Part shown: piece after piece, positions 46,992-50,671 of the stretch | Position numbering within the stretch: position 1 is the stretch's first letter | Layout of the letters: each line of letters starts with the position of its first letter | Origin: Minisyncoccota bacterium | Lineage (GTDB): Bacteria; Patescibacteriota; Minisyncoccia; Phycocordibacterales; Phycocordibacteraceae | Direction of reading: 5' to 3' | NCBI GenBank assembly: GCA_036405415.1 | Contig: DASWXP010000002.1 | Location: forward strand, 48,097-112,096 | Length of the DNA: 64,000 nucleotides | Position numbers and translations under genes: made by a program | Notes under the pieces: model-generated | The model's input: only the letters and a program-made list of their open reading frames with translations | Database searches by the model: none | Told to the model about the DNA's origin: nothing

Positions 46992-47003
46992 TACAATAGA
47001 GGT

Positions 47004-47609
47004 ATGATCGTCCTTGATGTTGAGACCACGGGTCTCGTGCCAGAAAAGCACTCCATCCTCTCCTTAGGTGCGGTGGATCTCGACGAGCCTACCAACCAGT
47101 TCTACGAAGAATGTCAGGTATGGGAGGGTGCAGATATCTCTGATGAGGCACTTGCAATCAACGGGTTTACGCGGGAGGAAGTAGTAGGACAGGGACGCGC
47201 GAAGCAGTCCGAGGCAGCGCTCATCGCTTCGTTCGTCGCGTGGGCTACCGACCGGCCGAAGGACCGTACGCTCGCCGCGCAGAACGTATCGTTCGATCTC
47301 GAGTTCGTTCAGGCAGCGTGCAAGCGCGCAGGTATCGAAAGTCCCTTTGGTAAGCGCACGCTCGACGTGCATACGCTCACCTGGCTCCATATGACTTCGC
47401 GCGGGATCGTGCCGCCTGTCGCGAAGCATCACTCCGCCATCAATCTCGATGCCGCGCTCGTGTACTGCGGCCTTCCAGGGGAACCGAAGCCGCATAACGC
47501 GCTTACGGGAGCGCTCTGTCACGCAGAGGTGATCGCGCGCATAGCGTATACTAAGAACCTACTACCAGACTTCAGTACCTTTCCGATTCCATGGGAGACG
47601 AGCCGATAA
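47004..47609 (+). CDS. DEDDh 3'-5' exonuclease (DnaQ-like)
   Basis: VLDVETTG, a second motif with QNVSFDLEF, and H...D in the third. Confidence 0.8.
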   Translation: MIVLDVETTGLVPEKHSILSLGAVDLDEPTNQFYEECQVWEGADISDEALAINGFTREEVVGQGRAKQSEAALIASFVAWATDRPKDRTLAAQNVSFDLEFVQAACKRAGIESPFGKRTLDVHTLTWLHMTSRGIVPPVAKHHSAINLDAALVYCGLPGEPKPHNALTGALCHAEVIARIAYTKNLLPDFSTFPIPWETSR

Positions 47610-48385
47610 TCACCACACCGACTACCAGCCTCTACACGCCGGACGAAGGAAAGCCGGAGCCTGCGCGCGATCGCGAGATGGGCAACATGCTCGTGCGCGC
47701 GATCGAGGAAGGGAAGCAGGTGGTCCCGGAGAACCCGGCGCCCTTGGTATGCAAGCCGCAGCAGCTTGAGAGCTGGCGGGTGTTCAAGATCATGGCCGAG
47801 TTCGTGGACGGCTTCGACCTCCTGAAGAAGTACGGCCTCACCGCCACCTTCTTCGGAAGCGTGCGCACGCAGCCGGGAGAGCCGGCATATGAGGCGGCGC
47901 GCGAGCTTGCGGGACGCCTCGCGAAGGCAGGGTACGCGATCGTAACCGGCGGGTCTGCCGGCATCATGGAAGCGGGGAATCGCGGCGCTCATGAGGCAGG
48001 GGGCGCATCTGTCGGCCTCAATATCCGCCTCGCGGACAATCAGGCGAATAACGAGTACCTTACAGACAACTTCATCTTCGATCACTTCTTCGTGCGCAAG
48101 GTGATGCTCGCGTTCGCGTCCGAAGTCTACGTGTACTTCCAGGGAGGATACGGGACGCTCGACGAGTTCTCTGAGATCGTCACCTTGGTACAGACGAAGA
48201 AGATCAAGCCGGTGCCGATCGTGCTCTACGGCAAGGAATTCTGGGATCCGATCGTGACCCTCTTCAGGGAGCACCTGCTCGGGAAGTACGGCACCATCAG
48301 CGAAGAGGATCTCGCGCTCTTCCAGGTGGTAGATTCGGTCGACGAGGCGTTCGAATACATCAAGAAGACCGTCACGGCCTGCTAG
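47591..48385 (+). CDS. LOG-family protein (TIGR00730, cytokinin riboside 5'-monophosphate phosphoribohydrolase-like)
   Basis: VFGSVRT, TGGSAGIMEA and GGYGTLDEF. Confidence 0.8.
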   Translation: MGDEPIITTPTTSLYTPDEGKPEPARDREMGNMLVRAIEEGKQVVPENPAPLVCKPQQLESWRVFKIMAEFVDGFDLLKKYGLTATFFGSVRTQPGEPAYEAARELAGRLAKAGYAIVTGGSAGIMEAGNRGAHEAGGASVGLNIRLADNQANNEYLTDNFIFDHFFVRKVMLAFASEVYVYFQGGYGTLDEFSEIVTLVQTKKIKPVPIVLYGKEFWDPIVTLFREHLLGKYGTISEEDLALFQVVDSVDEAFEYIKKTVTAC

Positions 48386-48388
48386 CCT

Positions 48389-48547
48389 ATGGGACTCGAC
48401 TACAGCCAGAAGCGCCTCGTGTCGATGGCTCGGCACACGAAAGGGAACAGTAAGCACGCGAAGCGTCTCAGGCTCTATGCCTTCCTTACGGGCATCATGG
48501 GTCTTCTGATATCCCTCGTGCAGCTCTATGTCGTTGCCACGCGCTAG
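48389..48547 (+). CDS. small single-TM protein (52 aa), paralog A
   Basis: A basic N-terminus (KRL...KHAKRLRLYAF) then LTGIMGLLISLVQLYVV. Absent from the track because it is under 60 aa. Confidence 0.4.
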   Translation: MGLDYSQKRLVSMARHTKGNSKHAKRLRLYAFLTGIMGLLISLVQLYVVATR

Positions 48548-48569
48548 CGCGTGGTATCCTCTTAGGCAT

Positions 48570-48695
48570 ATGGCACGGAGCAGGAAGCGCGCTAAGAAAG
48601 GAAAGTTCGAGCTCGAGGTCTACGCGTTCTGGACCGGATTCGCGAGCACGCTCATAAGCCTTCTTCACGTCATCCTCATGGCGACAAAGGGATAG
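48570..48695 (+). CDS. small single-TM protein (41 aa), paralog B
   Basis: MARSRKRAKKGKFELEVYAFWTGFASTLISLLHVILM shares the pattern of paralog A. Confidence 0.4.
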   Translation: MARSRKRAKKGKFELEVYAFWTGFASTLISLLHVILMATKG

Positions 48696-48698
48696 TAG

Positions 48699-48911
48699 AT
48701 GCGACGCATGAAGCATCTCTACAGCATCACGAAACCGCAGCTTATTACGCTATGGGTGTTCGGTGGCGTGGCTACGTTGTGGGCGATTGATAAGGCGACG
48801 TACCTGCCGTACTCGTCATCGTTCACGTTCACCGAGTTTGTCGGTTGGGTTACGCCGCTCATACTTTTCCTCTATACGTTCGGATGGTGGGAGAAGCAGA
48901 AGAAGAAATAG
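48699..48911 (+). CDS. small membrane protein (2 TM, 70 aa)
   Basis: It starts right after the double stop TAGTAG of the previous small ORF. Confidence 0.45.
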   Translation: MRRMKHLYSITKPQLITLWVFGGVATLWAIDKATYLPYSSSFTFTEFVGWVTPLILFLYTFGWWEKQKKK

Positions 48912-48913
48912 GA

Positions 48914-48940
48914 AAGGGCCGGAGATTTCCTCCGGCCCTT
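48914..48940. terminator. bidirectional Rho-independent terminator
   Basis: aagggccggag atttc ctccggccctt with T-runs on both strands. Confidence 0.75.
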
Positions 48941-48955
48941 GTCGTTGTCCGTATT

Positions 48956-49126
48956 CTACGGGCGTCTGGATGCGCCGGTGACGAAGTCACACAGCTCCAT
49001 CACCAGGAAGATGATGCCGAGGATGACAAGCACCAGAAGACCCGGAGGATCGCTTTCGTTGTCCAGCGTCTCTTCGGCACCAGCAGGCGGTCCTTGAAGG
49101 GTAGTGGGGTCATACTCTGCTGTCAT
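48956..49126 (-). CDS. small membrane protein (56 aa)
   Basis: AGGGAGA Shine-Dalgarno. Acidic N-terminus then LLVLVILGIIFLVMEL TM. Confidence 0.4.
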   Translation of the reverse strand: MTAEYDPTTLQGPPAGAEETLDNESDPPGLLVLVILGIIFLVMELCDFVTGASRRP

Positions 49127-49138
49127 GAGCTTCTCCCT

Positions 49139-49363
49139 CTACGAGACCGTTGCGCTGCGATACAGGCGCCGACCGATTTCTCCTGCAGCAATGCAGAGGA
49201 GCGCGGGGAAACCTGCTGTCCGGGCTGGAAGCCCGAGCCACAGGAAGCCGATGGCGAGGGCCGCAAGACCCGCGCCTGCGAGAATCATGAGGATGACGCC
49301 TCCAAATAGCCGGGCCGTCATGAGATGCATCTCACTGGTTTCAGACTCGGGGTTCATGTGCAC
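49139..49363 (-). CDS. small membrane protein (74 aa, 2 TM)
   Basis: LFGGVILMILAGAGLAALAIGFLWLGL. Confidence 0.45.
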   Translation of the reverse strand: MHMNPESETSEMHLMTARLFGGVILMILAGAGLAALAIGFLWLGLPARTAGFPALLCIAAGEIGRRLYRSATVS

Positions 49364-49506
49364 GCTCCAATGTTCAGATGAATACTGTGTGGATTATACC
49401 ATGAGAAATTACGATTAGGAAGTATGTGATTAGACAACATAAGTTAAGGGGTGGGGAAGCGAGGACTTTATTTTGTCTTTATTACTGTGAGGTAGGATTT
49501 GGGTAT

Positions 49507-50115
49507 ATGGAACTAGACCCACCAGTAATCCAGGCGCTCATTATAGCGACCACCACTTCTACTAACGATCTGCAAGTTCAAACGGCACTTTTGACCGGTT
49601 CATTTATAGTGCTCGGCGCTGCGGTTTCAGCACTTGCCACGTATTTAACGATGAAGCATCAGCAAGTTGCTGCAAACAAAGCTGCATCAGATCAACGTCT
49701 TTTTGATGCGCGTCGTATCGCGTACGGAGATGCGTTCTCGGTGATCAGTTTTTCAATCAATGAGCGGAATAACGGTCGAAGATATCCTGAACGTTCTACT
49801 GACCCAAGCAATAGAGAAGCAAATGATCTGATGGCACGACTATCCCTTCTATCATCTCAAGAAATGTCAGAACCATTAAGGCTTATGTTTGGTTACTTAG
49901 CCAGTCTAATTCCAGATACTGATGAAGCTAAAAAGCAAGACATGATTCAAGGGACTCTTTTATGGCAGAATCTGTTGTATGCCATGCGAGAAGATTTGCA
50001 TGGAGACGGCACTTTTTTACCAAATATTGTCCCTACTCCAGAGGGAGAGACCGTAAGGGAGACTGAAGACTCTACGGTGGTAACTGAGTCGTCGAGTCGA
50101 GATACCGGCCATTAA
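49507..50115 (+). CDS. membrane-anchored hypothetical protein (first gene of the AT-richer island)
   Basis: Its composition drops relative to the flanks. A TM (LLTGSFIVLGAAVSALATYL) is followed by a soluble domain. Confidence 0.45.
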   Translation: MELDPPVIQALIIATTTSTNDLQVQTALLTGSFIVLGAAVSALATYLTMKHQQVAANKAASDQRLFDARRIAYGDAFSVISFSINERNNGRRYPERSTDPSNREANDLMARLSLLSSQEMSEPLRLMFGYLASLIPDTDEAKKQDMIQGTLLWQNLLYAMREDLHGDGTFLPNIVPTPEGETVRETEDSTVVTESSSRDTGH

Positions 50116-50144
50116 AAATTCCCAATCTTTCCAAATTGTAGACA

Positions 50145-50654
50145 GGGAAGTGGCCTCTCCGGAGGCTTCTTCCTTTACCTCTAAAAGCACTCCCCCGGAC
50201 TCAATTTCGGGATTTCGGGGAAGTGGTCCGAAATGCTCTATTTCGCGCGCACGAAACTTTCGCAGGAGAAATCCCAGAGAGCCGGCCGGTGAGAGATTCC
50301 TATAAAAGAGTCTAAAGGGAAGTAGAGGAGTCTATGAATCGGAAGCCTTAAATGAACATTTTCAGCATTCCCGGATTCTATAGAAGTACTTCGTACAATA
50401 TATCTTTTACGCAGCACTTCTACAATACAGCGAGAAAGTGGGCCGTATTCGTTCTCGTGATGATCTCGGTCTCCGCTCGTCTAAGTAGATATATGTTCCG
50501 TACAAATGTCATTCAACCTATATGGAATCACATCTATCTACTCCTAAATCATCATCTAAAATATCCTCAGTGACACTTCCCCGATTACTGATAATGAGCC
50601 GGGGGAGTTATCTGTAAAAGAGAAAGAGTAGCCCCTCCCAGAAGTTACTTCCCT
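50145..50654. repeat. quartet of GGGAAGT(G) motifs: two direct (50145, 50217) and two inverted (50574, 50647), spaced about 72 nt within each pair
   Basis: agGGAAGTGGcc and gGGGAAGTGGtcc on plus. cACTTCCCCg and tACTTCCCTg are their reverse complements. They enclose an AT-rich 350-nt core. Confidence 0.5.
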
Positions 50655-50671
50655 GCCAAATCAAGCATTGA

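What the first reader, a model, noticed from the sequence alone, without database searches (positions are those of the whole stretch)
48389..49363. Unannotated cluster of five tiny membrane proteins (41-74 aa), including tandem paralogs, convergent on a bidirectional terminator
Three plus-strand small ORFs (52, 41 and 70 aa) sit back to back directly after the LOG gene, with TAGTAGATG spacing. The first two share a basic N-terminus followed by ...YAF(L/W)TG...LISL... in a single TM. Two minus-strand small TM ORFs (74 and 56 aa, with an AGGGAGA Shine-Dalgarno) converge from the other side of the terminator at 48914-48940. All lie at the edge of the foreign island. Tandem small single-TM proteins of this kind are typical of toxin-like or phage-exclusion peptides, bacteriocin immunity proteins and holin-like proteins. 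They would be missed by a 60-aa ORF cutoff.
Basis: seen in the sequence. Interest (0 to 1): 0.55.

Follow-up and report, generated by a model that had tools for sequence, protein, structure and literature searches.

The report
LOG-linked small membrane proteins beside dif
Three of the five tiny ORFs are real, conserved small membrane-protein genes that always trail the LOG enzyme gene, close to a probable chromosome dimer-resolution (dif) site, in one group of Patescibacteria; the other two are weakly constrained species-specific additions, and none of the five looks like a toxin, holin or immunity gene.

Summary
All five ORFs exist as described. They are not unannotated: GenBank lists them as hypothetical proteins VGE53_00625 to VGE53_00645. 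The cluster is two different things.

**A (52 aa), B (41 aa) and C (67–70 aa)** are genuine core genes.
- Orthologs follow LOG in the same order in about 80 Patescibacteria loci.
- pN/pS is 0.21–0.38, against 0.26 for LOG, and the proposed frame is the best of six.
- A and B are true paralogs (hhalign 98%). Both are tail-anchored, with one conserved face of small residues along the TM helix. Some lineages carry a single ~65 aa gene combining A's N-terminal motif with B's TM segment.
- B has a conserved extended −10 box 6–9 nt before its ATG in most loci, which suggests a leaderless mRNA.
- No Pfam, NCBIfam, PADLOC, PHROGs, PDB or viral matches.

**D (56 aa) and E (72 aa)** occur only in this species. 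Constraint is weak (13 synonymous to 13 non-synonymous changes), although they have a promoter, Shine-Dalgarno sequences and a shared terminator hairpin.

**Context.** The locus abuts a dif-like site (50388–50415) at the GC-skew maximum. In the most distant relatives B sits 22–110 nt from that site. C, D, E and the low-GC cargo are later insertions between B and the site.

The toxin, holin and immunity readings are not supported for A–C. This is a modestly interesting, undescribed microprotein family.

The parts
47004..47609 (+). DEDDh/RNase T-type 3'-5' exonuclease gene, first gene of the conserved block. It overlaps the LOG start by 19 nt.
   Evidence: Pfam RNase_T 1.5e-11. Conserved upstream of LOG in about 36 Patescibacteria loci. 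33 synonymous to 4 non-synonymous changes against the sister strain.
47591..48385 (+). LOG / TIGR00730-family gene (264 aa), ending in a clade-specific C-terminal Cys
   Evidence: Pfam Lysine_decarbox 2e-28. TIGR00730 128 bits, above the cut-off of 96. 60 synonymous to 1 non-synonymous change. C-terminal Cys statistics.
48389..48547 (+). A: 52-aa tail-anchored small membrane protein. It has the conserved N-terminal motif MGLDYSQKRL, a basic linker and a C-terminal TM segment (YAFLTG...ISL). It starts 3 nt after the LOG stop.
   Evidence: Orthologs in 16 genome loci and 46 of 58 metagenome loci. pN/pS 0.38, lowest of six frames. 11 synonymous to 1 non-synonymous change against the sister strain. 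62 database clusters, all hypothetical. AlphaFold helices 5-19 and 22-51. GenBank HEY0947983.1.
48552..48560 (+). TGGTATCCT: a conserved extended -10-like box 9 nt upstream of B's ATG, proposed as an internal promoter giving a leaderless or near-leaderless B(-C) mRNA
   Evidence: TGnTAnnnT lies upstream of B's in-frame ATG in 66 of 69 non-redundant loci, against 7.5% of control windows. Spacing is 6-9 nt in 48 of 66. The TG, TA and final T are invariant while the middle three bases vary. It is the only GTGRTATYCT in the window.
48570..48695 (+). B: 41-aa tail-anchored small membrane protein, paralog of A. It has a variable basic N-terminus and a near-invariant TM core LEVYAFWTGFaSTiISLl(Q/H)ViIiAxK, ending 1-3 residues after the TM segment.
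   Evidence: 17 genome loci and 64 metagenome loci. pN/pS 0.21-0.29. 2 synonymous to 0 non-synonymous changes. Conservation periodicity peaks at 100 degrees. hhalign against A 98.3%. GenBank HEY0947984.1.
48699..48911 (+). C: 67-70 aa two-TM hairpin protein with both ends basic (predicted inside). The probable start is 48708.
   Evidence: Orthologs follow B in L002, L004, L005 and L006 and in three metagenome loci. pN/pS 0.27. 19 synonymous to 4 non-synonymous changes. Hydropathy. GenBank HEY0947985.1, 67 aa.
48914..48940 (.). G+C-rich hairpin with an 11-12 bp stem, shared by the convergent units: probable bidirectional intrinsic terminator
   Evidence: The stem is conserved in sister strain L083 while the loop and closing pair are flipped.
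48956..49126 (-). D: 56-aa ORF with an acidic, proline-rich N-terminus and one TM segment. Species-specific.
   Evidence: Found only in this organism and in sister strain L083. 6 synonymous to 5 non-synonymous changes, ORF intact. AGGGAGA Shine-Dalgarno in an invariant 12-nt spacer. No viral relatives.
49139..49357 (-). E: 72-aa ORF with a long hydrophobic segment (one or two TM). Species-specific, first gene of the E-D unit.
   Evidence: Only P0063 (identical) and P0064 (89% identical) among 5.8 billion clusters. 7 synonymous to 8 non-synonymous changes, ORF intact. GGAG lies about 10 nt upstream of the ATG. No viral relatives.
49393..49401 (-). TGGTATAAT: extended -10 promoter-like box for the E-D unit
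   Evidence: Read directly from the sequence. Unchanged in L083, whose differences begin further upstream.
50388..50415 (.). dif-like 28-bp site ACTTCGTACAA-TATATC-TTTTACGCAGC, which bounds the locus and marks the replichore boundary
   Evidence: 18 of 28 identical to B. subtilis dif (9/11 left arm, 5/6 centre), with arms inverted at 8/11. The cumulative G-C maximum is at 50345. The 13-mer core is single-copy downstream of B in 60 of 78 loci, with 0 hits in 471 kb of controls. The GC-skew shift at the core holds across 37 genomes, p 1.2e-6. Reference dif sequences and the dif/skew rule come from PMC3025954.

Best explanation
Shown:
- A, B and C are genuine, vertically inherited small membrane-protein genes. 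They form the tail of a conserved exo-LOG-A-B(-C) gene block in one clade of Patescibacteria (Paceibacterota).
- A and B are paralogs. Other lineages carry either a single ~65-aa gene (A's N-terminal motif plus B's TM segment) or B alone.
- Both are tail-anchored by sequence: a basic N-terminus, one C-terminal TM helix and only 1-3 residues after it.
- The TM helix has one conserved face of small residues (A-G-S/T-S-V-A) and a conserved polar Q/H.
- A starts 2-10 nt after the LOG stop codon.
- B is preceded by a conserved extended -10 box 6-9 nt from its ATG in most loci.

Inferred:
- A is co-transcribed with LOG and translationally coupled to it.
- B (and C, where present) can also be made from an internal promoter as a leaderless mRNA.
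- A and B pack through their small-residue faces into a small hetero-oligomeric helix bundle, joined by C in this sub-lineage.
- The bundle acts as a membrane-embedded accessory partner of the LOG-linked function, for example by tethering or regulating the exonuclease/LOG pair at the membrane through A's conserved cytoplasmic N-terminal motif. It is not a toxin, holin or immunity protein.

D and E are a separate, young, species-specific two-gene unit with its own promoter and Shine-Dalgarno sequences. [quoted passage not shown]
For: Gene reality:
- Orthologs sit in a fixed order right after LOG.
- pN/pS is 0.38 for A, 0.21-0.29 for B and 0.27 for C, against 0.26-0.28 for LOG. Synonymous sites are saturated, and the proposed frame is the best of six in every case.
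- Sister-strain synonymous to non-synonymous changes are 11:1, 2:0 and 19:4.
- GC3 is 0.70-0.75.
- GenBank calls all of them.

Linkage to LOG:
- A scan seeded only with B patterns found LOG upstream in 41 of 42 loci with room to tell.
- LOG-to-A gaps are 2-10 nt in 17 loci.

Paralogy and fusion:
- hhalign 98.3%.
- The ~65-aa single-gene forms combine A's N-terminal motif with B's TM segment.

Helix-packing face and tail anchoring:
-.

Internal promoter:
- 66 of 69 loci against 7.5% of controls; spacing 6-9 nt in 48 of 66; the motif persists inside the coding sequence of the long forms.

Not mobile or defensive:
- No hits in Pfam, NCBIfam, PADLOC, PHROGs or PDB.
- No relatives in viral contigs.
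- Housekeeping neighbours: L9, S41 peptidase, DEDDh exonuclease.

Precedent for small subunits encoded just downstream of their partner's genes:
- CydX after cydAB (PMC12648545).

D and E:
- Species-restricted.
- Combined 13 non-synonymous of 26 changes against a neutral expectation of 0.73, P about 0.01. Constraint is much weaker than in A-C, Fisher P about 1e-6.
- Promoter, Shine-Dalgarno sequences and hairpin are kept in the sister strain.
Against: - There is no expression or interaction data of any kind.
- LOG is a soluble enzyme, and no LOG-TM fusion protein was found among 1.84 billion representatives. A physical link is therefore pure inference from gene order.
- Sister lineages keep exo-LOG but have no A or B next to it, so LOG evidently works without an adjacent partner.
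- B is linked to the dif-like site about as tightly as to LOG: it sits 22-110 nt from the site in 30 loci. The conserved position could therefore reflect frozen gene order near that site rather than shared function.
- The leaderless-promoter reading rests on a consensus match. Promoter rules for Patescibacteria are not established (only 2 papers mention both 'leaderless' and 'Patescibacteria'; neither was read).
- For E, the antisense frame gives the same substitution ratio, so selection alone does not prove which strand codes.
Confidence: 0.5

Rival explanations
1. A, B and C are real housekeeping membrane microproteins whose function has nothing to do with LOG. They might be small subunits or regulators of some membrane complex encoded elsewhere. 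Their position after LOG would simply be frozen gene order at the end of a replichore.
For: - B is as close to the dif-like site as to LOG.
- Relatives keep LOG without an adjacent A or B.
- B appears to have its own promoter, so it need not be co-regulated with LOG.
- No LOG-TM fusions were found.
- Most characterised small membrane proteins partner with membrane complexes, not soluble enzymes (PMC12648545).
Against: - LOG lies upstream in 41 of 42 loci from a B-seeded scan, across lineages where LOG is only about 55% identical and synonymous sites are saturated.
- LOG-to-A gaps of 2-10 nt suggest coupled translation.
- The only other membrane protein in the conserved block is C, which is itself a small two-TM protein, so no obvious membrane partner is encoded there.
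Confidence: 0.3
2. One reading: the small TM proteins are toxin-like or phage-exclusion peptides, bacteriocin immunity proteins or holins.
For: - The proteins are small and hydrophobic.
- C has a two-TM layout with both ends predicted inside and a basic C-terminus, a topology also seen in class II holins (plus my own knowledge of holins).
- D and E sit in a strain-variable zone next to low-GC cargo.
Against: For A-C:
- core, syntenic and under strong purifying selection;
- no PHROGs or PADLOC hits;
- no viral relatives;
- no lysin, bacteriocin or transporter neighbours;
- single-copy, not patchy;
- the TM segment is at the C-terminus with a basic N-terminus, the opposite of typical type I toxins (my own knowledge).

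For D and E:
- no homologs anywhere, including viral contigs.
Confidence: 0.07
3. D and E are not functional genes. They would be chance or decaying ORFs in recently inserted DNA between B and the dif-like site.
For: - No homologs beyond one sister strain.
- Synonymous to non-synonymous changes are near 1:1 (6:5 and 7:8). Individually this is not, or only barely, distinguishable from neutrality: P 0.04 and 0.09.
- GC3 of 0.63-0.67 is weaker than in the core genes.
- The antisense frame of E scores the same.
- Small TM ORFs in the same slot in relatives are unrelated to each other.
Against: - Both ORFs are intact after 7% divergence, with no indels.
- The combined deficit of non-synonymous changes has P about 0.01.
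- A TGGTATAAT promoter box, an AGGGAGA Shine-Dalgarno in an invariant spacer, a GGAG before E and a conserved terminator hairpin together form a complete expression unit.
Confidence: 0.3
4. exo-LOG-A-B-C is a nucleotide-centred defence or conflict system, with a SLOG-fold sensor, a nuclease and small TM effectors.
For: - Weak PADLOC similarities: LOG to PsyrA (8.5e-6, 47 residues) and the exonuclease to DEDDh/'Effector' models.
- A Pfam LDcluster4 (SLOG cluster 4) hit, 4e-17.
- The locus adjoins a variable region.
Against: - LOG scores above the curated TIGR00730 cut-off and best matches canonical Lysine_decarbox.
- The block is vertically inherited, in a fixed position, among housekeeping genes in about 80 loci. 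This is unlike the patchy distribution of defence systems.
- The small proteins have no PADLOC hits.
Confidence: 0.04
5. A and B act in chromosome dimer resolution or division at the replication terminus, for example as membrane partners of FtsK/XerCD. That would explain why B sits 22-110 nt from the dif-like site.
For: Tight, conserved adjacency of B to the dif-like core, and the location at the GC-skew shift point.
Against: - In this window and its near relatives, 0.25-2.8 kb of unrelated insertions separate B from the site without loss of B.
- Lineages without A or B keep the site directly after LOG.
- Being close to a DNA site does not imply that a membrane peptide acts on it.
- I know of no precedent.
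Confidence: 0.04

Closest known systems
Small accessory membrane subunits encoded just downstream of their partner's genes (e.g. CydX, 37 aa, after cydAB; PMC12648545)
   Same: A 35-50 aa single-TM protein in a fixed position at the 3' end of a conserved operon, conserved over long evolutionary distances, with a TM helix whose conservation pattern suggests helix-helix packing.
   Different: CydX's partner is a membrane complex. Here the upstream genes (DEDDh exonuclease and LOG) are soluble enzymes. There is no sequence similarity, and no partner has been shown.
Bacterial tail-anchored and very small membrane proteins inserted post-translationally (e.g. YohP; PMC7549839)
   Same: A single TM segment at the extreme C-terminus. 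The protein is too short to leave the ribosome before translation ends, so insertion must be post-translational.
   Different: No homology. The insertion pathway in Patescibacteria is unknown. A and B carry an unusually long, strongly basic N-terminal tail.
Type I toxins (Hok, TisB, Fst, TxpA; comparison from my own knowledge)
   Same: Size of 30-60 aa and a single hydrophobic helix.
   Different: Type I toxins usually have an N-terminal TM segment and a charged C-terminus. They are paired with an antisense RNA, are often multi-copy and patchily distributed, and evolve fast. A and B are single-copy, syntenic core genes with the opposite polarity and strong purifying selection.
Class II (two-TM) phage holins (comparison from my own knowledge)
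   Same: C has two TM segments, both ends predicted inside and a basic C-terminus.
   Different: No lysis cassette, no phage context, no PHROGs hit. C is conserved as a chromosomal gene after B in several related genomes.
dif/XerCD sites and the mobile elements that integrate next to them (IMEX; PMC3025954 for dif, IMEX from my own knowledge)
   Same: A 28-bp imperfect palindrome at the GC-skew shift point, single-copy and conserved across the clade. Strain-specific low-GC DNA lies directly next to it.
   Different: Xer binding is untested. The right (XerD-side) arm is poorly matched to model dif sites. No duplicated dif-like site flanking the cargo was found in the window (the 13-mer core occurs once). 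Whether the cargo arrived by Xer-mediated integration is unknown.

Membership tests
Tail-anchored small membrane proteins (structural class) | A single hydrophobic TM segment at the extreme C-terminus, with at most a few residues after it | tested here: met
   A: TM about 29-51 of 52. B: TM about 18-39 of 41. The family ends 26-27 residues after the start of the core in 61 of 63 B-type sequences. AlphaFold gives helix 22-51 with pLDDT 83-96.
Tail-anchored small membrane proteins (structural class) | Cytoplasmic N-terminal domain (positive-inside rule) | tested here: met
   The N-terminal flanks carry net charges of +6 (A) and +5 (B). The N-terminus stays basic while its sequence varies across orthologs. 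The topology itself was not tested experimentally.
Small accessory subunit of an operon-encoded partner (CydX-like logic) | Conserved co-location in the same operon as the partner | tested here: met
   LOG lies upstream in 41 of 42 B-seeded loci. LOG-to-A gaps are 2-10 nt.
Small accessory subunit of an operon-encoded partner (CydX-like logic) | Physical association with the partner, and a functional requirement for it | not testable with these tools
   Needs co-purification or genetics. No LOG-TM fusion was found as indirect support.
Type I toxin-antitoxin toxins | Patchy, often multi-copy distribution with rapid turnover | tested here: not met
   A and B are single-copy in each locus, in a fixed syntenic position, with pN/pS like LOG.
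Type I toxin-antitoxin toxins | Overlapping or adjacent antisense RNA antitoxin | tested here: inconclusive
   No Rfam family in 48200-49600. The antisense ORF is a shadow. Novel antisense RNAs cannot be excluded without RNA-seq.
Type I toxin-antitoxin toxins | Membrane toxicity on overexpression | not testable with these tools
   Requires an expression experiment.
Phage holins | Phage or prophage context with an adjacent endolysin | tested here: not met
   Neighbours are L9, S41 peptidase, the exonuclease and LOG. None of the five small ORFs nor the adjacent 229-aa ORF has a PHROGs hit. No relatives in viral contigs for B, D or E.
Bacteriocin immunity proteins | Adjacent bacteriocin precursor and a dedicated transporter or modification genes | tested here: not met
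   No such genes lie in the conserved block 42-49 kb. The island genes are HNH, GTP cyclohydrolase II, SAM_HAT, TauD, S66 peptidase and MazG-like.
Known anti-phage defence systems (PADLOC) | A match of the component proteins to defence-system models | tested here: not met
   No hits for A-E. Only weak generic fold-level hits for LOG and the exonuclease.
dif (XerC/D chromosome dimer resolution site) | 28 bp: two roughly 11-bp inverted arms around a 6-bp centre, similar to known dif sites | tested here: met
   ACTTCGTACAA-TATATC-TTTTACGCAGC. Arms are inverted at 8/11. 18/28 identical to B. subtilis dif (9/11 and 5/6 in the left arm and centre), though the right arm is only 4-6/11. Reference sequences checked in PMC3025954.
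dif (XerC/D chromosome dimer resolution site) | [quoted passage not shown] | tested here: met
   The core occurs once in 64 kb. The cumulative G-C maximum at 50345 is 43 bp from the site. The skew shift at the core holds in 37 related loci, Wilcoxon p 1.2e-6, while the control split shows none.
dif (XerC/D chromosome dimer resolution site) | Bound and recombined by XerC/XerD | not testable with these tools
   Biochemical. I did not look for xer genes in this genome.

The most novel reading that the evidence does not exclude
A clade of Patescibacteria couples a soluble LOG-family (TIGR00730) enzyme to a dedicated pair of tail-anchored microproteins. A is translated in tandem with LOG and carries a conserved cytoplasmic docking motif (MGLDYSQKRL). 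B, made from a conserved leaderless internal promoter, supplies the invariant membrane helix. Together they would hold or gate the exonuclease/LOG pair at the membrane. This would be a microprotein-mediated membrane recruitment of a soluble enzyme not described before, in organisms thought to depend on imported nucleic acids. The split, fused and B-only gene forms would be a natural record of how such a two-part adaptor evolves.
Probability: 0.25. Interest if true: 0.6.

Novelty: new member of a known kind. Interest (0 to 1): 0.4.

Why it matters
Patescibacteria genomes are full of small hypothetical membrane proteins, and very few have any functional lead.

This family comes with unusually clean comparative evidence:
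- strong purifying selection;
- a near-invariant TM helix with a clear packing face;
- a 98% association with one enzyme gene (LOG);
- natural fused and split gene forms;
- a conserved promoter layout that suggests leaderless expression.

That makes it a tractable test case for how microproteins work with enzymes in ultra-small bacteria. It also shows that ORFs of about 40 aa can be validated from sequence data alone.

The context matters too. A clade-wide candidate dif site and replichore boundary gives a fixed landmark for these mostly fragmentary genomes. It also shows that the DNA between the last conserved gene and that site is where new small genes and foreign cargo accumulate.

Tried and rejected
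1. Family searches. Pfam, NCBIfam, PADLOC and PHROGs scans of all five proteins, and a PDB profile search with the A/B family alignment, found nothing.
2. Known RNA instead of genes. Rfam at E<=1 over 48200-49600 gave no match.
3. The minus-strand ORF 48495-48716 and the plus-strand ORFs overlapping D and E (154, 104 and 72 aa). I rejected them as shadows: stop codons or non-synonymous excess in the sister strain, and weak tblastn conservation.
4. Stop-codon readthrough fusing LOG to A. They are in frame in the window, but the frame relation is not conserved in L002, L005 and L006 (start coordinates).
5. LOG-TM fusion proteins as indirect evidence of interaction. None were found. The long hits are repeat artefacts, plus one lone chimera with a histidine-kinase fragment.
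6. My interim inference that B is absent from protein databases was wrong. It was an artefact of the concatenated query. B is in GenBank, and B-like proteins are in the larger library.
7. Homology between D/E and the minus-strand small TM ORFs in the same slot in relatives: none.
8. The ~310-nt conserved element at 50140-50455 as a structured RNA. It has no Rfam hit, and RNAalifold finds 6 pairs with no covariation. I reinterpreted it as a dif-like site with flanking conserved DNA.
9. Linkage of that element to the nearby HNH gene: relatives have no HNH homolog.
10. Literature searches for LOG-associated small proteins in Patescibacteria, or for leaderless genes there, found nothing specific.
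Full report

| ORF | Coordinates | Strand | Length |
|---|---|---|---|
| A | 48389-48547 | + | 52 aa |
| B | 48570-48695 | + | 41 aa |
| C | 48699-48911 | + | 70 aa (67 aa from 48708) |
| D | 48956-49126 | - | 56 aa |
| E | 49139-49363 | - | 74 aa from GTG (72 aa from the ATG at 49357) |

- A G+C-rich hairpin at 48914-48940 separates the two convergent groups. It is much more stable than shuffled controls on both strands: -32.2 and -23.8 kcal/mol, z -4.9 and -3.8.
- LOG (47591-48385) is a TIGR00730/Lysine_decarbox protein. A DEDDh exonuclease gene overlaps its start.
- The claim 'unannotated' does not hold. An exact-sequence look-up shows all five in GenBank as consecutive hypothetical proteins HEY0947983.1 to HEY0947987.1 (VGE53_00625 to VGE53_00645) of a Candidatus Paceibacterota MAG. 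B is called at 41 aa, C at 67 aa and E at 72 aa.

**Source organism and comparison set.**
- A LOG-seeded scan of one genome per species returned about 38 Patescibacteria loci with LOG 56-89% identical.
- A scan of metagenomes seeded only with B-family patterns returned 64 more loci.
- A Logan contig, L083, is a sister strain. It is collinear with window 47000-49422 at 92.3% identity with no gaps.

**A, B and C are real genes.**
- tblastn finds A and B directly after LOG in 16-17 of the genome loci. C follows B in four.
- Codon-aware alignments give pN/pS of 0.38 (A), 0.21-0.29 (B) and 0.27 (C), against 0.26-0.28 for LOG. Synonymous sites are saturated (pS 0.68-0.79).
- In each case the proposed frame has the lowest ratio of all six. 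The usual antisense shadow frame comes second, exactly as for LOG.
- Against the sister strain, synonymous to non-synonymous codon changes are 11:1 (A), 2:0 (B) and 19:4 (C), with 60:1 for LOG.
- The competing minus-strand ORF 48495-48716 gains a stop codon in that strain and shows 1:6.

**What A, B and C are.**
- A and B are homologous: hhalign probability 98.3%, E 1.3e-14 over 35 columns.
- Both have a strongly basic N-terminal part (net +6 and +5), one hydrophobic helix and only 1-2 residues after it. By sequence they are tail-anchored with the N-terminus inside.
- AlphaFold with the family alignment gives A a moderate-confidence helix at 5-19 and a confident helix at 22-51.
- Across 63 distinct B-type sequences the core is LEVYAFWTGFaSTiISLl(Q/H)ViIiAxK.
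  - A5, F6, W7, G9 and S12 are invariant.
  - Y4, T8, T13, S16, V20, A24 and K26 are nearly invariant.
  - Conservation has a clear 100-degree period.
  - This puts a stripe of small residues (A-G-S/T-S-V-A) on one helical face, the usual signature of tight helix-helix packing (established knowledge). There is also a conserved polar Q/H inside the membrane.
- A keeps a conserved extreme N-terminus, MGLDYSQKRL, and a looser TM segment.
- C is a two-TM hairpin with both ends basic.
- None of the five matches Pfam, NCBIfam, PADLOC or PHROGs, and a PDB profile search with the A/B family alignment found nothing.
- The A search finds 62 clusters, all unnamed or 'hypothetical', all Patescibacteria.
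- An exhaustive profile search of 1.84 billion representatives finds only 40 clusters, almost all 35-84 aa. The family is narrow and undescribed.

**Gene architecture varies informatively.** Downstream of LOG one finds one of three forms:
1. A plus B, as in this window.
2. A single ~64-70 aa gene with A's N-terminal motif, a basic linker and B's W-type TM segment.
3. B alone (35-37 aa).

The fused form argues that A's cytoplasmic motif and B's helix belong to one functional unit.

**Linkage to LOG.**
- In the B-seeded metagenome set, LOG lies upstream in 41 of 42 loci with room to tell. This holds even where LOG is only about 55% identical.
- LOG-to-A gaps are 2-10 nt in 17 loci, which fits translational coupling.
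- LOG in this clade ends in a C-terminal Cys in 66 of 68 loci with A/B, in 16 of 22 Patescibacteria loci without them, and in 0 of 40 LOGs from other phyla.
- Against a strict dependence: several sister lineages keep exo-LOG with no A or B beside it, and no LOG-TM fusion exists.

**A conserved promoter-like box before B.**
- Directly after A's stop codon lies CGTG(G/A)TAT(C/T)CT. In the window this is GTGGTATCCT at 48551-48560, the only such site in 64 kb.
- Generalised as TGnTAnnnT, it precedes B's in-frame ATG in 66 of 69 non-redundant loci, against 7.5% of control windows.
- The invariant positions are exactly the TG, TA and final T of an extended -10 element. The three middle positions vary.
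- The spacing from the last T to the ATG is 6-9 nt in 48 of 66 loci, with a mode of 7.
- With standard sigma-70 geometry (established knowledge) this places the transcription start at or within a few bases of the ATG. That means a leaderless or near-leaderless mRNA, and it would explain why B lacks a Shine-Dalgarno sequence.
- The box persists inside the coding sequence of the fused ~65-aa forms. It is therefore conserved as DNA, not as protein. This step is inference; no 5'-end data exist.

**D and E are a different matter.**
- They have no counterpart in any related genome locus.
- A database search returns only E itself and an 89% variant from the sister strain. D's cluster likewise holds only this organism and that strain. 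Viral contigs hold nothing.
- Both ORFs are intact in the sister strain, but synonymous to non-synonymous changes are 6:5 and 7:8.
  - The combined deficit of non-synonymous changes is marginal (P about 0.01).
  - Constraint is far weaker than in the neighbouring core genes (Fisher P about 1e-6).
  - E's antisense frame scores the same.
- In favour of expression:
  - a TGGTATAAT box at 49393-49401 on the minus strand;
  - a GGAG before E;
  - an AGGGAGA in the invariant 12-nt E-D spacer;
  - the conserved hairpin downstream.
- Relatives carry unrelated small TM ORFs on the minus strand in the same slot.
- I regard D and E as probably expressed, young, lineage-specific ORFs of unknown value to the cell. 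There is about a 30% chance that they are not functional genes.

**The surroundings explain the layout.**
- Synteny with relatives stops exactly at C's stop codon, 48911, and resumes near 58.4-62.5 kb.
- The sister strain's homology stops at 49422. Beyond that it carries different low-GC DNA with no match anywhere in the window.
- A ~310-nt stretch at 50140-50455 is conserved downstream of LOG in more than 30 relatives.
  - It has no Rfam match.
  - It has no covariation support as an RNA.
- Its invariant core, ACTTCGTACAA-TATATC-TTTTACGCAGC (50388-50415), resembles dif.
  - It is 18/28 identical to B. subtilis dif: 9/11 in the left arm and 5/6 in the centre.
  - Its arms are inverted repeats at 8/11 positions.
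  - The reference sequences, and the rule that dif lies at the GC-skew shift point, were checked in PMC3025954.
- The cumulative G-C maximum of the window is at 50345.
- GGGAAG occurs 46 times on the plus strand to the left of the site and never to the right.
- Genes on the far side, including LexA, are mostly on the minus strand.
- The 13-mer core is single-copy downstream of B in 60 of 78 loci, and in 33 of 38 with at least 2.9 kb of room. It has no hits in 471 kb of loci from other phyla.
- Across 37 loci the GC skew is positive to the left of the core in 36 and drops to about zero on the right (Wilcoxon p 1.2e-6). A control split shows no change.
- In the more distant lineages B's stop codon is only 22-110 nt from the core. 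In the window's near relatives the gap is 0.25-2.8 kb, and in the window it is 1.7 kb.

So exo-LOG-(A)-B is the last conserved unit of one replichore. C, a ~40-aa basic peptide seen in relatives, assorted minus-strand TM ORFs, D/E and the low-GC cargo are successive insertions between B and the dif-like site. The convergent orientation and the 'foreign island edge' follow from that position.

**Interpretation.**
- Firm: A, B and C are real. They form an undescribed family of tail-anchored (A, B) and hairpin (C) membrane microproteins. A and B are paralogs. They are core genes, not mobile ones.
- My best mechanistic reading is inference from anatomy and gene order, at about 50% confidence. A and B form a small TM helix bundle through their conserved small-residue faces. 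The bundle serves as a membrane partner for the LOG-linked function, with A's N-terminal motif as the cytoplasmic contact.
- The main rival, at about 30%, is that they serve some unrelated membrane function and that the linkage is positional inertia next to the dif-like site.
- The toxin, holin, immunity and defence readings are unlikely for A-C. They are unsupported, though not excluded, for D and E.

**Novelty.** This is a new family within a known kind, bacterial small membrane proteins. It has some unusual, testable features: near-absolute linkage to a soluble enzyme gene, natural split and fused forms, and a conserved leaderless-type promoter. Interest is moderate (0.4).

Noticed in passing
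window 50388-50415 (core); 50140-50455 (conserved stretch): A clade-wide conserved 28-bp dif-like site, ACTTCGTACAA-TATATC-TTTTACGCAGC, lies 43 bp from the cumulative G-C maximum (50345). It is single-copy downstream of LOG/B in 60 of 78 related loci, and the GC skew shifts at it in 37 genomes. It is a probable XerC/D site marking the replication terminus of these Paceibacterota.
   Followed up: yes
window about 50140-50660: The dif-like core is flanked by conserved GGGAAGTG / CGGGGAAGTGG blocks on the left (50145, 50218). Their reverse complements appear on the right (about 50574 and 50640-50657), giving a roughly 520-bp quasi-palindrome. Some relatives (L003, L006, L008, L098) show a full inverted copy of the left arm beyond the core. 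GGGAAG is strongly strand-polar: 46 against 0 on the plus strand, left against right of the site. These may be FtsK-orienting (KOPS-like) sequences, or something else.
   Followed up: partly
L001-L009 and several metagenome loci, just after B or C (e.g. L004:7329-7451): Relatives encode a very basic peptide of about 40 aa ending ...GFSxKGVKKPVRATYYGKKAR, between B/C and the dif-like site. It is absent from the window (tblastn). Function unknown.
   Followed up: no
window 48380-48385 and the LOG 3' ends in all loci: LOG in this clade ends with a C-terminal cysteine (...NVxC-stop). This holds in 82 of 90 Patescibacteria loci, including 66 of 68 with A/B downstream, and in 0 of 40 LOGs from other phyla. 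An invariant terminal Cys on a soluble enzyme is unusual and unexplained.
   Followed up: partly
window 49423 to about 56000; L083:1-1147: Low-GC (0.42-0.50) strain-specific DNA lies on both sides of the dif-like site. It encodes a 229-aa unknown ORF, an HNH endonuclease, GTP cyclohydrolase II, a SAM_HAT-like protein, a TauD-family dioxygenase, an S66 peptidase and a MazG-like protein. Together these may form a small nucleoside or cofactor-modification cassette. The sister strain carries entirely different low-GC cargo (53-aa and 198-aa ORFs) at the same junction.
   Followed up: partly
window 48914-48940 against L083: Between the two strains the terminator hairpin keeps its stem, but the loop and closing pair are exchanged. 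The L083 plus strand reads like the window's minus strand with 1 mismatch. This looks like an inversion of the palindrome centre.
   Followed up: no
window 48956-49357 against 47591-48385: Synonymous-site divergence from the sister strain is 0.12-0.14 in D and E, against 0.33 in LOG. Possible causes are more recent shared ancestry of the D/E segment (recombination), or extra constraint on the DNA.
   Followed up: no
L116:1362-1808: In one metagenome locus a 148-aa ORF is inserted between A and B. It carries what looks by eye like a Nudix box (GGGIDEGES...REFIEETG). B keeps its TGGTATCCT box, which fits the idea that B is an independent transcription unit.
   Followed up: no
P0103 (131 aa): A single database protein joins a B-like N-terminal TM segment (LQLYAFWTGLTSTLVS...) to what looks like a histidine-kinase ATPase fragment. 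It may be an assembly or gene-call chimera. It was not seen again.
   Followed up: no
distant loci, downstream of the dif-like core (e.g. L105:3356-3523, L110:861-1010): A second pseudo-peptide string, M(A)WIEMPKKDSA.KR..., recurs in spurious ORFs. It indicates another conserved nucleotide element just beyond the dif-like site, followed by a conserved ORF of about 210 aa. It was not examined.
   Followed up: no
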